A stretch of 64,000 bases of DNA from an uncultured Mycoplasmatota bacterium (GTDB lineage Bacteria; Bacillota_I; Bacilli_A; RF39; UBA660). The stretch spans positions 25 through 64,024 of the forward strand of contig URLV01000005.1 of NCBI GenBank assembly GCA_900548725.1, written 5' to 3'. The notes under the pieces were generated by a model. That model did no database searches. It worked only from the letters and a program-made list of their open reading frames with translations, and had not been told where the DNA came from. The position numbers and the translations under genes are program-made. Below, piece after piece: positions 6,214-9,474 of the stretch. Positions within the stretch are counted from its first letter, which is position 1, and each line of letters begins with the position of its first letter.

Positions 6214-6248
6214 CTAAAAAATGTTGATAAGTTATTTGTTATCAACAT
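6214..6248 (-). terminator. Intrinsic terminator of the 1080-aa fusion gene
   Basis: ATGTTGATAA (6221-6230) and TTATCAACAT (6239-6248) form a 10-bp stem enclosing the stop codon. T5 follows on the minus strand (6220-6216). Confidence 0.55.
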
Positions 6249-9200
6249 TTCTGTTTATTTTTTCTTTTAATATTACTATTAAATATTTTATATTATGTTT
6301 TATAAATCTTGTTATTCTTTTTGGTTCACTTGCTATTCTATATAACCATTCCAAATTCAATTTAATAAAAATTCTTGGAGCACGTTTTTTAGTGCCACTT
6401 AGCACATCAAATGAACCACCTACTCCTATAAATATTCCTTTTTTGAAATCATTTATATGTTTATTAATTAATTTTTCTTGAAGAGGTATTCCTAATGCTA
6501 ACATGACTATATCAGGATTAGTTGTTTTAATATAATTCATTACTCCATCTTTATCCTTTATATAACCATTTGTTCCGCCAACTAGATTTATGTTTGGATA
6601 TTTTGTACTTATAGCATTAGTTAGTTTATCCATTACATCTTCGCTAGCACCAAATAAATATACTTTATATTTATTTTCATTCGCTAATGTTAATAAATGT
6701 TCTGCTAAATCTACTCCTGTTATTCTTTCTTTTATATTATATCCTAATAAGTTGCTTGTTTTAACTATACTTATTCCATCTGGTACTATTAAATTATTTT
6801 TATTATAAAGCATATCTGATATTTCAGAATCTTTTCTAGATAGCATATATGTTTCTGGATTAGCCGTTATAATAAATTCTTTTTCTTTATTTTTTAATTT
6901 ATTTTCAATTAAGTTATAACATTCTTTTTTATTATTTATATATAAATTAGTATAAATATTATTATGACTTATATTTTTAAAGAAATTTATATTTTCTTCT
7001 TTTATTAAATCGTAATCATATTGTTTAGATATTGATAAAGATTTTATTTGATATTCTTTTCTTACTTTTTCATCATTTATTAGATTTTTTAATTCTTTAA
7101 TCATTTCTTTTTCATTTCTATTTTTTATCAAAATACCATTTTCTTTAATTATTTCTTTTGCTCCTAATGCACTATCATATGCTATAAGTGGTAATCCATG
7201 GCTAGCAGCTTCTAAAAGTACTAATCCAAAAGATTCTTCTATTGATGTCATTATATATATAGATGATTCTTTGTAAAGCTTATTTAATTCTTCTGTATTT
7301 TTAAATCCTAATAATTTAATATTATCTTCCATATTTAATTCTTTTATAAGATTATTTAAATTATCAAACTCACTTCCAGTACCTACTATTGATAAAGTCC
7401 ATTCTTTGTTATCTAATTTATTAAATAATTTTATTAAATCATCATAACCTTTTACTTTTTCTAATCTTCCTACTGATATTATGTTTTTATTTTTTAGATT
7501 AGATAATTTATTATCAGTTTCTATTGGCATGTTATTTGTTATTATTTTATATCTATATTCTGTAAATAATTCTTTATAGTAATTAGTTAAGTAATTGCTA
7601 CTTGGCATTAAATAGTCAACACTTTTTAATATATAATGTAATTTATTTAAATATTTTGTATTATTGTTATGATAAATATGTTCTTCTGCTATTTTAATAT
7701 TATTATATTCATTATTTCTTATTAATTTTTCTGTAAAATCTATTCTAGTAGATATAATAATTTCACTATTACAATTTATCATTGATTTAGTAATTAGTGT
7801 ATGTTTTAAATAAAGTACTTTTATACTATATATACCTTGTTTTATTATGTTGATTATATTTTTAGAATGTAATGCTTCTTTTAATTCTTTTCTATTTGGT
7901 TTTATATTAGTAGTTAAATATTTAATTTTTACATTATCATTTAATTTAAAATCTGGTTTATCTTTTAATTTATACAAACTTATTATTTCTACATCATTTA
8001 TTTCACTTAATATATTTGCTTTAGTACAAATATTTTTTTCTACTCCTCCATAATTTAAATGTAGAGCGTATATTGAAACTTTATTTTTTTTGATTTTATT
8101 ATCTTTTTTATTTAATAAGTTTATTTCATTCATAGCAGGTAATAAATACATAACTATATATATAGATACAGCAGGAGCGCATAATGTATGACCACTTATA
8201 CAAGATATACTTAATAATAATCCTATCATTAATGTATAAAATACTGTATTTATATTTAATTCTCTAGATTGAATTATTTTTATTAAATAGTAAATGAAAG
8301 GTAGTAAAACTAATATTAGTGCAATAAGTCCTGAATGAAAAAATATATCTAATATATCTATTTCTATAAGTTTTGTTATTGCATAATGTTTTATTTCTAT
8401 TGTATTTGAATATCCTATTCCTAACAATAATACTTTTGCATTAAAATGTTTCGAATATATTTCATATGTTAATCTAAAATATATATCTCTTGAAGATAAC
8501 ATTATTCTTCCATATTTTTTTATTTGTTTTACTAATTTGGAATCATTGCTTAACTTGTCTTCTTTTTCTATTTCTTTTCTTATTCTTCCATATTCTTCCT
8601 CTAGAAAACGTTCGTTTTTTTCTTGTTCAGTTACTGGATCTTTTCTTGGAGGCTCTGGTTTTACTTTAACATTTTTTAATTTTTTTGGATCTTTTGGTAT
8701 ATTATATTTTACATTATTAAGTGTACTACTATTTAATATTAAAAGTATAATACCTAAAAGTATAAATCCTATTTTTAAAGTTGTTATTTTCTTTTTCTTA
8801 ATTAATGACAATACTAATATAATTGTTGTTGTAATTATTATTCCTAATACTGAAACTTTAGTTCCTAAAGAGAATATCATTAAAATCATAAATATTATTA
8901 GAACTATATTAAATTTACTTTTATTAATTTTTGTTAATAAAAATGGGTATAGTAGTGTTAAAATAACTGATATTTCATTTGCTGAATTAAACCATCCTGA
9001 ACTTCCTTTATAACCTTTGTAATTATAAGTACTAAATCCTGTATTTGTAATTAACGGTAAAAATAATAGTATTCCATATGTTATAAAATTTATTATTAGT
9101 ATTTTGATTATTTTTTCTTTATCAAATTTATGTTCATCAAAAAAGCATAATAAGCAAACTAATAATATTGGAAAATACATTGTTTTAAACATATATATTG

Positions 9201-9474
9201 ATTCTTTTATAAACATAGACATTGTTAGATATTTTATTTTTGATAAAATATATGCTAGCATGTAAATGAATATTAAAAGTATATATATTAAACCCTTCTT
9301 TTTATATTTCGATGTGGAAAAGATTAGAGTTATTAACATTATTGCTAGAAATAGTAATTTTACGATTACTCCTATACTTACTGTAAGATTAAATAATCTT
9401 GTTGATATAGATGTTAGTAAATCTATAATTGGTAATAATATTAAAAATATATATAATTTTTTGTTGTTGCTCAT
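6232..9474 (-). CDS. Triple-domain protein: Wzy/O-antigen-ligase-like polytopic domain + GT4 glycosyltransferase + WecG/TagA (GT26) N-acetylmannosaminyltransferase
   Basis: aa 1-~465 are many TM helices with a large charged loop. aa ~470-850 are GT-B/GT4 ([23 protein letters not shown]). aa ~860-1083 match TagA/WecG ([49 protein letters not shown]). Start moved to ATG 9474 (SD AGGTAGGTG) from GTG 9483. Confidence 0.8.
   Translation of the reverse strand: [1080 protein letters not shown]

What the first reader, a model, noticed from the sequence alone, without database searches (positions are those of the whole stretch)
6232..9474. Single 1080-aa polypeptide combining a Wzy/O-antigen-ligase-like membrane domain, a GT4 and a TagA/WecG domain
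Seen: one uninterrupted ORF has three parts.
- A polytopic N-terminal half with a large charged loop.
- A central GT-B/GT4 domain ([23 protein letters not shown]).
- A C-terminal domain with the full TagA/WecG signature (VPDGISIV..., [41 protein letters not shown]).

Established: TagA/WecG enzymes are normally stand-alone ~250-aa proteins that add ManNAc(A) to lipid-linked GlcNAc. The UDP-ManNAc supplier MnaA is encoded immediately upstream (10064-11176).

Inference: this would physically couple the second, cytoplasmic step of linkage-unit synthesis to a polymerase/ligase-like extracytoplasmic module. I do not recognise this architecture as a described one.
Basis: partly seen in the sequence, partly recalled or inferred. 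Interest (0 to 1): 0.6.

Follow-up and report, generated by a model that had tools for sequence, protein, structure and literature searches.

The report
Three wall-sugar enzymes fused into one
An uncultured small-genome gut bacterium makes one 1080-residue membrane protein that joins two cytoplasmic sugar-adding enzymes (a GT4 and a TagA-type ManNAc transferase) to an outward-facing polymerase/ligase-like membrane domain; the fusion is real but is a lineage-specific joining of genes that sit side by side in relatives, so it is a useful functional clue rather than a new kind of system.

Summary
The ORF at 6232-9474 (minus strand) is uninterrupted and has three domains:
- PF13425 O-antigen-ligase-like, residues 5-442, predicted 12 TM.
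- GT4, about 464-835, EX7E motif intact.
- GT26/TagA, about 847-1075, with every known catalytic residue conserved.

It is not an assembly artefact. More than 100 independently assembled homologues, down to 42% identity, keep the same frame. It carries the only TagA domain and the only PF13425/Wzy-clan domain found in this 90%-complete, walled 1.2-Mb genome.

The triple fusion is rare: about five 50%-identity clusters among 1.84 billion representatives, found only in the window's own genus among the genomes sampled. The pairwise fusions (ligase-like-GT4, GT4-TagA, ligase-like-TagA) are common in metagenomes. Related genera carry `olig-gt4 | tagA | mnaA` as adjacent genes, mostly with overlapping stop/start codons, so the fusion arose by joining a conserved module.

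Best reading: the cytoplasmic domains build the start of an undecaprenyl-PP-linked, ManNAc-containing glycan primed by TagO. After export, the membrane domain polymerises it (favoured) or ligates it. This resembles ECA or the B. anthracis SCWP (WpaA/WpaB). Polymerase versus ligase is unresolved.

The scan noted the same or similar fusions before on other DNA (e1-3594369, e1-1096164, e1-4802296). I found no published characterisation. It is a new variant of a known kind, of moderate interest.

The parts
6232..9474 (-). Whole gene: 1080-aa PF13425-GT4-GT26 fusion protein (stop codon at 6232-6234)
   Evidence: ORF list and translation. Pfam and NCBIfam domain hits. Same frame in more than 100 homologue clusters.
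8110..9474 (-). Residues 1-455: O-antigen-ligase-like (PF13425, WpaA/WpaB-type) membrane domain. Predicted 12 TM, N-in/C-in. The large loop 256-382 faces outward.
   Evidence: - Pfam hit, E 4e-55.
- Hydropathy and charge topology.
- Helices in the AF2 full-length model, block pLDDT about 76-94 apart from the loop.
- Invariant polar residues D18, K39, E91, G160-W161-F162, N166, T205-K206, R329, E371, D373, D376 and H429 all map to the outer face.
- Remote homology to the Wzy_C-type modules of relatives: hhalign E 3e-5.
6970..8085 (-). Residues about 464-835: GT4 (GT-B fold, retaining-type) glycosyltransferase domain with EX7E motif E747...E755
   Evidence: - Pfam Glycos_transf_1, E 1e-37.
- Full-length alignment to PglJ/PglH models.
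- Foldseek best hit 6EJI (WlaC, i.e. PglH): E 1e-14, TMt 0.81.
- E747, E755 and G476 are invariant.
6235..6934 (-). Residues about 847-1080: GT26 TagA/WecG domain, including the C-terminal membrane-targeting tail
   Evidence: - Pfam hit, E 3.5e-55.
- PDB TagA 7MPK, E 1e-34.
- T. italicus residues T37, N39, D65, Y137, Q167, E210, R214, R221 and R224 align to T870, N872, D899, Y971, Q999, E1042, R1046, R1053 and R1056. All are invariant in 22 homologues (residue roles from PMC8784642).
9475..10063 (-). 590-bp upstream intergenic region. By eye it has an extended -10 'TGTTATAAT' about 30 nt before the start codon. The mnaA terminator lies at its far end (10042-10061).
   Evidence: Sequence read directly. 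Terminator scan found 2 sites against 0.4 expected. No Rfam family matched. The promoter scan itself was uninformative: 47 found against 49 expected.
10064..11176 (-). mnaA/wecB, UDP-GlcNAc 2-epimerase: supplies UDP-ManNAc to the TagA domain
   Evidence: Pfam E 1e-127. TIGR00236 E 4e-167, above its cut-off.
12014..14398 (-). Wzx-type flippase (residues 1-407) fused to a second GT4 (410-781); same operon as mnaA
   Evidence: - About 12 TM helices.
- The N-terminal half is 28% identical over its full length (E 3e-34) to a stand-alone 407-aa Polysacc_synt-type protein in L044.
- The C-terminal half is 65% identical to a stand-alone GT4 there.
38012..39061 (-). TagO/WecA-type initiating GlcNAc-1-P transferase. 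It is the only polyprenyl-P priming enzyme in the genome besides MraY.
   Evidence: PF00953 and TIGR02380 hits. Only two PF00953 genes in the genome. No PF02397 priming transferase.
25314..29010 (-). TagH, TagG, TarI and a TagF-like enzyme: the ABC-transporter-dependent teichoic-acid-type half of the super-locus
   Evidence: Pfam and NCBIfam hits.

Best explanation
The gene encodes one trifunctional enzyme of cell-wall glycopolymer synthesis.

**Shown or directly predicted**
- A 12-helix membrane domain of the O-antigen-ligase/Wzy clan (PF13425, the family of B. anthracis WpaA/WpaB) places its conserved polar residues on the outer face.
- Its C-terminus re-enters the cytoplasm. There it carries a GT4 domain and a complete GT26/TagA domain with its membrane-binding tail.

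**Inferred pathway**
1. TagO (38012-39061) makes Und-PP-GlcNAc.
2. The TagA domain adds beta-ManNAc from UDP-ManNAc, which MnaA supplies.
3. The GT4 domain adds an alpha-linked (probably HexNAc) sugar.
4. Further transferases of the upstream operon complete an oligosaccharide unit.
5. The Wzx-type flippase, itself fused to a GT4, moves the unit outward.
6. The N-terminal domain of the same fusion protein acts as the Wzy-type polymerase and joins units into a chain.
7. One of the two LCP enzymes transfers the chain to peptidoglycan.

This resembles enterobacterial common antigen and the B. anthracis secondary cell wall polysaccharide.

**Origin of the fusion**
It arose in this genus by joining a conserved module, `olig-gt4 | tagA`, whose genes are adjacent and mostly overlapping in sister genera. 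It probably serves co-localisation and fixed stoichiometry of first and last steps, not a new chemistry.
For: **Domains and active sites are intact**
- Pfam and NCBIfam hits.
- TagA catalytic and substrate residues are all conserved.
- EX7E motif is conserved.
- The AF2 model is confident: pLDDT 83, pTM 0.71.
- The GT4 domain is closest to PglH/PglJ-type enzymes, which act on Und-PP-oligosaccharides.

**Topology and single polypeptide**
- The predicted topology puts both transferases in the cytoplasm and the invariant polar residues outside.
- No Met or other start lies at either junction. The first Met after the GT4/TagA junction is M877, past T870/N872. The parts must therefore be made as one chain.

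**Genome context**
- It is the sole TagA and the sole PF13425/Wzy_C-clan domain in the genome.
- The genome has peptidoglycan enzymes and 2 LCPs.
- TagO is the only priming enzyme.
- The upstream operon has a Wzx-type flippase, MnaA and extra GTs.

**Module behaviour in relatives**
- In relatives both the flippase (28% identity) and the membrane module (replaced by a Wzy_C-type domain) diverge. The GT4 and TagA parts stay 62-78% identical. This is the pattern typical of wzx/wzy gene pairs.
- Rosetta-stone evidence: `olig-gt4` followed by `tagA`, overlapping by 4 bp or 14 bp or 1 bp apart, then `mnaA` in two of four loci examined.
- All pairwise fusions exist.

**Literature**
- PF13425 proteins WpaA/WpaB are proposed SCWP polymerases/ligases (PMC6030368, PMC13721041).
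- WecG-type GTs act in Wzy pathways (PMC11340318).
Against: **No direct evidence of activity**
- No biochemical data exist for any PF13425 protein.
- Polymerase and ligase cannot be told apart from sequence.

**Missing or weak pathway parts**
- No Wzz/PCP chain-length regulator is in the genome.
- The flippase assignment rests on homology to a protein with only a weak Polysacc_synt hit. On the window protein itself the hit is E 0.2.

**Signs pointing to a ligase role in this family**
- Stand-alone PF13425 paralogues in same-genus and same-family genomes sit between tagO and tagGH, or next to tagGH. The one locus examined by Pfam has no flippase. At least some members of the family therefore serve ABC-exported polymers.

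**No structural support**
- The isolated N-domain model was poor (pLDDT 52).
- WaaL was the top Foldseek hit but not significant, E 0.15.
- There is no sequence-level hit to any solved structure.
- hhalign against E. coli WaaL gave 0.5% probability.

**Possible second role for TagA**
- The single TagA domain may also have to serve the TagGH/TagF-type pathway in the same super-locus.
Confidence: 0.45

Rival explanations
1. **Ligase reading.** The cytoplasmic chemistry is the same, but the N-terminal domain is a WaaL/TacL-like ligase rather than a polymerase. It would transfer a finished Und-PP-linked chain onto an acceptor on the outer face. The chain could be, for example, the polymer exported by TagGH. 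The acceptor could be:
- the flipped GlcNAc-ManNAc-X 'linkage/core' oligosaccharide made by its own TagA and GT4 domains (the murein-linkage-unit model proposed for B. anthracis SCWP);
- a membrane glycolipid (LTA-like, as for pneumococcal TacL);
- another glycan chain (dual-chain assembly, as in Lactococcus and Enterococcus).
For: - Stand-alone PF13425 genes lie in the order tagO-PF13425-tagG-tagH in three relatives, and as tagGH-PF13425 beside the triple fusion in two more.
- The G005 locus contains only GT4s, TagA, MnaA and TagGH, with no flippase detected.
- No Wzz is present.
- The window holds a full TagGH/TagF/TarI pathway that also needs the single TagA.
- The B. anthracis model assigns both polymerisation and ligation to PF13425 proteins (PMC6030368).
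- Fusing TagA (maker of the acceptor) to a ligase (user of the acceptor) would be a natural Rosetta stone.
- An earlier scan note, e1-4802296, raised the same idea for an 818-aa PF13425-GT4 protein in an ABC-type locus.
Against: - The tagGH-adjacent paralogues are separate clades, only 25-35% identical to the fused domain. Their role need not transfer to it.
- Those genomes do have extra Wzx-type flippases on other contigs.
- This genome has a Wzx-type flippase in the adjacent operon and no other candidate polymerase.
- LCP enzymes already cover attachment to peptidoglycan.
Confidence: 0.3
2. **Anchor-only reading.** The membrane domain is catalytically idle. It only tethers GT4 and TagA to the membrane near the flippase or ABC transporter, while polymerisation or attachment is done elsewhere.
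For: - TagA needs membrane association for activity (PMC8784642).
- An earlier scan follow-up on a two-domain relative, e1-1096164, judged the fusion a 'modular tether'.
- The N-terminal module is freely exchanged between strains.
Against: - About 30 residues are invariant across the 14 aligned sequences (32-68% identical to the window's domain), and the polar ones cluster on the outer face. A mere anchor would not need this.
- TagA keeps its own membrane-binding tail.
- The genome has no other clan member to supply the missing activity.
Confidence: 0.07
3. **Artefact reading.** The fusion is an assembly or frameshift artefact, or a decaying pseudogene, and the cell really makes two or three separate proteins.
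For:
- Relatives do have separate genes.
Against: - The same uninterrupted frame occurs in more than 100 independently assembled clusters at 42-98% identity.
- The same-genus genomes found to carry it have no internal stops.
- All three domains keep their catalytic residues under clear purifying selection.
- No start codon exists at the junctions.
Confidence: 0.01

Closest known systems
Bacillus anthracis secondary cell wall polysaccharide pathway: TagO, TagA1/2, WpaA/WpaB (PF13425), LCP enzymes (Oh et al. 2017, as cited in PMC6030368; review PMC13721041)
   Same: - Same Pfam family for the membrane enzyme (PF13425).
- Same partners: TagO priming, a TagA-type ManNAc transferase, MnaA, and LCP attachment to peptidoglycan in a monoderm.
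- ManNAc-containing repeat or linkage unit.
- The role of the PF13425 proteins (polymerase and/or ligase) is unresolved there too.
   Different: - In B. anthracis all the enzymes are separate proteins; here three are one polypeptide.
- This genome has no pyruvyl transferase and no SLH-domain proteins. It therefore lacks the S-layer-anchoring role.
- There is one PF13425 copy here, against two there.
Enterobacterial common antigen pathway: WecA - WecG (GT26) - WecF - WzxE - WzyE/WzzE
   Same: GlcNAc-1-P priming, a GT26 enzyme adding the second sugar, a third transferase, a Wzx flippase and a Wzy-clan polymerase. This is the same logic as the pathway inferred here.
   Different: - ECA enzymes are separate proteins in a diderm.
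- WecG uses UDP-ManNAcA, and the third transferase is GT56 rather than GT4.
- A Wzz co-polymerase is present there and not found here.
- WzyE belongs to a different Pfam family.
Stand-alone TagA/TarA (Thermoanaerobacter italicus TagA, PDB 5WB4/7MPK; B. subtilis, S. aureus)
   Same: - GT26 fold-family hit, E 1e-34.
- D65, R214, R221 and R224 and the ManNAc-contacting N39 and Q167 are all conserved.
- The C-terminal membrane tail is retained.
   Different: - Those are about 245-aa peripheral membrane proteins that dimerise off the membrane.
- Here the domain is permanently tethered behind a GT4 domain and a 12-TM enzyme.
- It scores below NCBI's TarA equivalog cut-off: 185.7 against 350 bits.
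Gram-positive Wzy/WaaL-clan enzymes annotated 'O-antigen ligase': E. faecalis EF2169 (proposed EPA decoration polymerase, PMC7188991) and S. pneumoniae TacL (LTA ligase; from my own knowledge)
   Same: Polytopic clan members in monoderm teichoic-acid or polysaccharide loci, acting on exported Und-PP-linked chains. They show that either role, polymerase or ligase, is possible.
   Different: - Different Pfam family (Wzy_C).
- They are not fused to transferases.
- The window protein does not reach the Wzy_C threshold: 17.6 against 31.7 bits.
Uncharacterised two-domain fusions in metagenomes: PF13425-GT4 (about 810-860 aa), GT4-TagA (about 615-625 aa), PF13425-TagA or Wzy_C-TagA (about 680-770 aa)
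   Same: Homologous domains in the same order. They occur in the same bacterial family, and often with the missing third part as the next gene.
   Different: - They hold two of the three domains.
- They are much commoner: dozens of 50%-identity clusters, against about five for the triple fusion.

Membership tests
GT26 WecB/TagA/CpsF glycosyltransferases (PF03808, TIGR00696) | Profile match above the curated threshold | tested here: met
   PF03808: 186.8 bits against 27.4. TIGR00696: 172.9 bits against 69.
GT26 WecB/TagA/CpsF glycosyltransferases (PF03808, TIGR00696) | Catalytic base D65 and tail arginines R214/R221/R224 (T. italicus numbering); ManNAc contacts N39 and Q167 | tested here: met
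   These align to D899, R1046, R1053, R1056, N872 and Q999. All are invariant in 22 homologues. Residue roles are from PMC8784642.
TarA equivalog (NF041710: Und-PP-GlcNAc beta-ManNAc transferase of wall teichoic acid) | Score above NCBI's equivalog cut-off (350 bits) | tested here: not met
   185.7 bits. It is a family member, but it cannot be named TarA by that rule.
GT26 WecB/TagA/CpsF glycosyltransferases (PF03808, TIGR00696) | UDP-ManNAc : lipid-linked GlcNAc transferase activity | not testable with these tools
   Needs an enzyme assay.
GT4 retaining GT-B glycosyltransferases (PF00534) | Profile match, GT-B fold and EX7E motif | tested here: met
   - PF00534: 129.8 bits against 26.4.
- Foldseek 6EJI: E 1e-14, TMt 0.81.
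- E747-x7-E755 is invariant.
PF13425 O-antigen-ligase-like membrane proteins (WpaA/WpaB type) | Profile match above threshold over the whole domain | tested here: met
   187.8 bits against 31, covering profile positions 6-450 of 462.
PF13425 O-antigen-ligase-like membrane proteins (WpaA/WpaB type) | About 12 TM helices, with a large extracytoplasmic loop before the last three helices and both termini inside | tested here: met
   Hydropathy with the positive-inside rule. Helices in the AF2 model. This is prediction only.
Wzy_C / WaaL O-antigen ligase family (PF04932; WaaL, PDB 7TPG) | Profile match above threshold | tested here: not met
   - 17.6 bits against 31.7.
- hhalign against E. coli K-12 WaaL: probability 0.5%.
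- Only clan-level homology: hhalign against the Wzy_C-type modules of relatives gives probability 72%, E 3e-5.
Wzy_C / WaaL O-antigen ligase family (PF04932; WaaL, PDB 7TPG) | Structural similarity to WaaL | tested here: inconclusive
   - The isolated-domain model was poor (pLDDT 52.5).
- WaaL 7TPG was the top hit but with E 0.15.
- GT4 hits swamped the search with the confident full-length model.
Wzx/Wzy-dependent glycan pathway | Priming transferase, Wzx flippase, Wzy polymerase, chain-length regulator | tested here: inconclusive
   - TagO is present.
- The Wzx-type flippase is supported only by homology to a weak Polysacc_synt hit.
- The polymerase candidate is this protein.
- No Wzz was found.
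ABC-transporter-dependent wall teichoic acid pathway (TagO/TagA/TagB-F/TagGH/LCP) | All core components encoded | tested here: met
   - TagO, a TagF-like enzyme, TarI, TagG and TagH are in the window.
- TagA is present only as this fusion.
- Two LCP genes lie elsewhere in the genome.
- Whether this protein serves that pathway is not shown.

The most novel reading that the evidence does not exclude
Together with the neighbouring Wzx-GT4 fusion, this protein would form a physically coupled assembly line. One polypeptide would start a lipid-linked glycan on the inner face and finish it (polymerise or ligate it) on the outer face. This would give the first direct, Rosetta-stone-type link showing that PF13425 enzymes (the WpaA/WpaB family, whose role in secondary cell wall polysaccharide synthesis is still unknown) act on TagA-made ManNAc-containing undecaprenyl-PP glycans.
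Probability: 0.35. Interest if true: 0.55.

Novelty: new variant of a known kind. Interest (0 to 1): 0.4.

Why it matters
PF13425 membrane proteins are widespread in Gram-positive wall-polysaccharide loci, yet none has a demonstrated activity. In B. anthracis, WpaA/WpaB are only 'proposed' polymerases or ligases.

A natural fusion to TagA and a GT4, together with the conserved adjacency of the three genes, ties this family firmly to TagA-initiated, ManNAc-containing lipid-linked glycans. It also offers a single, self-contained protein in which both sides of the membrane step could be studied.

The locus shows how small-genome gut Bacilli compact their envelope pathways. There are three fusions in one locus: PF13425-GT4-TagA, Wzx-GT4 and HAD-GtrA. 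The chemistry itself is expected to be ordinary.

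Tried and rejected
- **Isolated N-terminal domain model.** I modelled it from a 7-sequence alignment so it could be fold-searched. The model was poor (pLDDT 52.5). WaaL was the top hit but not significant.
- **Fold search of the full-length model.** It returned only GT4 structures in the 50 rows shown.
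- **Sequence searches for the N-terminal domain.** An HMM of PF13425-type sequences against PDB sequences gave only low-complexity noise. hhalign against E. coli K-12 WaaL found nothing.
- **Pyruvylated SCWP / SLH-anchoring role.** A relative's locus has a pyruvyl transferase. The window's genome has neither a pyruvyl transferase (tblastn) nor SLH domains, so I dropped this reading.
- **Chain-length regulator and second priming enzyme.** Neither Wzz nor a PHPT was found.
- **Promoter scan.** It is uninformative in this AT-rich DNA: 47 sites found against 49 expected.
- **Rfam on the window.** Nothing matched in the long upstream spacer.
- **Literature searches for a described fusion.** None was found.
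- **Source names for homologues.** None was available.
- **Flippase presence as a test of polymerase versus ligase.** I tried this in relatives that lack the fusion. It was not decisive, because extra flippases lie on other contigs.

Full report
**1.

The window is very AT-rich, about 20% GC. One frame on the minus strand stays open from 9483 to 6232. The likely start is the ATG at 9474, behind a Shine-Dalgarno-like AGGTAGGTG. It gives 1080 residues. With about 9.6% stop codons expected at this composition, the chance of such a frame is about 1e-47 (my arithmetic).

Pfam finds three domains, all far above threshold:

| Domain | Residues | Score | Cut-off |
|---|---|---|---|
| PF13425 O-antigen_lig | 5-442 | 187.8 bits | 31 |
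| Glycos_transf_1 | 656-808 | 129.8 bits | 26.4 |
| Glyco_tran_WecG | 894-1057 | 186.8 bits | 27.4 |

NCBIfam models extend the GT-B domain to 464-832 and the TagA-type domain to 854-1074.

**2. It is not an artefact.**
- A search of 5.8 billion clustered proteins returned more than 100 clusters with the same three Pfam domains and the same length, at 42-98% identity. They come from many independent assemblies.
- In whole genomes, 11 of 15 species of the same genus carry it with no stop inside.
- In an alignment of 22 homologues, all three domains show dense invariant columns.
- There is no start codon near either domain junction. The first Met after the GT4/TagA junction (M877) lies beyond the catalytic T870/N872, so the parts cannot be made separately.

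**3. Each domain looks active.**

*TagA domain.* It matches the solved Thermoanaerobacter italicus TagA (7MPK) at E 1e-34. The residues that paper PMC8784642 names as catalytic or substrate-binding all align, and all are invariant in the 22 homologues:

| T. italicus | T37 | N39 | D65 | Y137 | Q167 | E210 | R214 | R221 | R224 |
|---|---|---|---|---|---|---|---|---|---|
| This protein | T870 | N872 | D899 | Y971 | Q999 | E1042 | R1046 | R1053 | R1056 |

The membrane-binding C-terminal tail is retained.

*GT4 domain.* It has the EX7E motif (E747...E755). In a confident full-length AlphaFold model (pLDDT 83.4, pTM 0.71) it superposes best on Campylobacter PglH (6EJI, deposited as WlaC; E 1e-14, TMt 0.81). 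PglH adds alpha-GalNAc to an undecaprenyl-PP-linked oligosaccharide.

*Membrane half.* It has 12 predicted helices. Short positively charged loops alternate so that the N-terminus, the C-terminus and therefore both transferases are cytoplasmic. A 127-residue loop (256-382) faces outward. Its first part is charged, variable in length and of low confidence.

The invariant polar residues of the PF13425-type sequences all fall in outward loops or helix ends: D18, K39, E91, GWF160-162, N166, T205-K206, R329, E371, D373, D376 and H429. This is what an outward-facing active site would look like.

**4. Context.**

Window positions 2.3-39 kb on the minus strand form one glycopolymer super-locus.
- A TagO/WecA-type priming enzyme lies at 38012-39061.
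- An LtaS-like enzyme, several GT2/GT4 enzymes, a TagF-like glycerophosphotransferase, TarI, TagG and TagH follow.
- Next comes an operon: GT2, DUF2304, GT4, a 794-aa protein, GT2 and MnaA.
- A terminator closes that operon.
- After 590 bp comes the fusion gene, on its own.

The 794-aa protein is a second fusion. Its first 407 residues match a stand-alone 407-aa Polysacc_synt-type (Wzx) protein of a related contig over their full length (28% identity, E 3e-34). Its last 372 residues are 65% identical to a stand-alone GT4 there. An earlier scan note, e1-3229477, had proposed this, and I confirmed it.

The genome is 1.21 Mb and 90% complete. Whole-genome searches gave:

| Feature | Result |
|---|---|
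| Penicillin-binding proteins | 5 |
| LCP ligases | 2 |
| WecG/TagA domain | 1, this protein |
| PF13425 domain | 1, this protein |
| Wzy_C | none |
| Wzz | none |
| PHPT priming enzyme | none |
| PF00953 genes | 2 (TagO and presumably MraY) |
| SLH domains | none |
| Pyruvyl transferase | none |

Close relatives are deposited as uncultured Bacilli MAGs from human gut samples.

**5. How the fusion arose, and how common it is.**

An exhaustive HMMER search of 1.84 billion representatives at 50% identity gives the following (Pfam checks):
- Only about five clusters have the full three-domain architecture: P0031, P0117, P0118, P0127 and the truncated P0132.
- Dozens of clusters are PF13425-GT4 proteins of about 810-860 aa.
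- About seven are GT4-TagA proteins of about 615-715 aa.
- More than ten are PF13425-TagA or Wzy_C-TagA proteins.

In a sample of 301 genomes of the same order (essentially one family, 127 genera), the triple fusion occurs only in the window's own genus. About 25 genomes have PF13425-GT4 and four have GT4-TagA.

In the three PF13425-GT4 loci I examined, tagA is the next gene, with a stop/start overlap of 4 bp or 14 bp, or a 1-bp gap. In one of them, and in a GT4-TagA fusion locus, mnaA follows. The triple fusion is therefore a conserved, apparently translationally coupled module in which one more stop codon has been lost.

In some relatives the N-terminal module is replaced by a Wzy_C-type domain, while GT4-TagA stays 62-78% identical. 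The two kinds of module are only remotely related (hhalign E 3e-5 over the GWFxxxNE region).

**6. What the membrane domain does.**

This is the unresolved point.

*For a Wzy-type polymerase:*
- The adjacent operon has a Wzx-type flippase and several transferases.
- The genome has no other candidate polymerase.
- In relatives the flippase and the membrane module diverge or are swapped together while the transferases stay conserved, as wzx/wzy pairs typically do.
- The literature describes the PF13425 proteins WpaA/WpaB of B. anthracis as probable polymerases of a ManNAc-containing polysaccharide (PMC6030368, PMC13721041).
- GT26 enzymes are known to add the second sugar in Wzy-dependent pathways (ECA WecG, holdfast HfsJ; PMC11340318).

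*For a ligase:*
- In three relatives that lack the fusion, a stand-alone PF13425 gene sits in the order tagO-PF13425-tagG-tagH. In two more, one lies between tagGH and the triple fusion.
- One such locus contains only GT4s, MnaA, TagA and the ABC transporter.
- No Wzz is present.

These stand-alone genes form separate clades, only 25-35% identical to the fused domain. Those genomes also have further flippases elsewhere. The argument therefore does not transfer cleanly to the fused domain.

My estimates are: polymerase about 0.45, ligase about 0.3, and an idle anchor unlikely because the outer face is conserved.

**7. Structure-based tests of the membrane domain failed for technical reasons.**
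- The confident full-length model returns only GT4 hits.
- The isolated-domain model, from a shallow alignment, was poor. WaaL 7TPG was its top hit, at a non-significant E of 0.15.
- No solved structure is detectable by sequence profile.
- hhalign against E. coli WaaL is negative.

I therefore file the domain in PF13425 and the Wzy/WaaL clan, not in the WaaL family.

**8. Comparison, novelty and verdict.**

The closest known systems are the B. anthracis SCWP pathway and enterobacterial common antigen. The chemistry inferred here is the same. The difference is that three enzymes are one chain. The flippase is also fused to a transferase, and HAD is fused to GtrA.

I found no paper describing PF13425-GT4-TagA or its two-domain forms.

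The scan itself has noted the same triple fusion in another genome (e1-3594369). It has also noted related two-domain fusions (e1-1096164, e1-4802296, e1-1179459, e1-2863317, e1-1068191). One follow-up likewise concluded that the fusion is common in metagenomes.

Verdict: real, well supported, and a new variant of a known kind. It is mainly valuable as Rosetta-stone evidence linking the uncharacterised PF13425 family to TagA-initiated glycans. Interest 0.4.

Noticed in passing
window 12014-14398 (-): A second fusion in the same locus. A Wzx-type flippase (residues 1-407) is joined to a GT4 (410-781). The two halves are separate genes, with mnaA between them, on the related contig L044.
   Followed up: yes
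window 3062-4084 (-); L044 13239-14247: A HAD phosphatase-GtrA fusion (340 aa). In L044 the two are separate, overlapping genes (191 aa and 148 aa). In most relatives this gene directly follows the TagA-containing gene. In the window, a GtrII-like gene (4150-5682) and a small cassette (5889-6197) are inserted between them.
   Followed up: partly
L040 5974-10596 (G014) and L041 (G008): In two same-genus genomes a stand-alone PF13425 paralogue (458-460 aa, 35% identical) lies close upstream of the triple fusion. In G014 it is directly adjacent and in the same reading frame, separated only by a TGA stop and two codons. In G008 it lies about 2.6 kb upstream.
   Followed up: partly
L046 11031-14087 (-) (G241, another genus of the family): A 1018-aa GT8-GT2-polysaccharide pyruvyl transferase triple fusion lies upstream of GT2-GT2-[PF13425-GT4]-TagA. 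It hints at a pyruvylated ManNAc polymer of the SCWP type in that genus. No counterpart exists in the window's genome.
   Followed up: partly
window 9475-10063: An unusually long (590 bp) spacer lies between the mnaA terminator and the fusion gene. It has no Rfam match, and I did not examine its conservation in relatives.
   Followed up: partly
window 31965-33425 (-) and 16593-18545 (-): Two large polytopic proteins sit inside the locus and may be GT-C-type extracytoplasmic transferases. The 486-aa protein has no Pfam or NCBIfam hit. The 650-aa protein has only a weak PMT_2 hit.
   Followed up: no
L004 10001-14314: In one related MAG the tblastn match to the fusion spans 4.3 kb instead of 3.2 kb. 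This could be an insertion or an adjacent paralogue. I did not inspect it.
   Followed up: no
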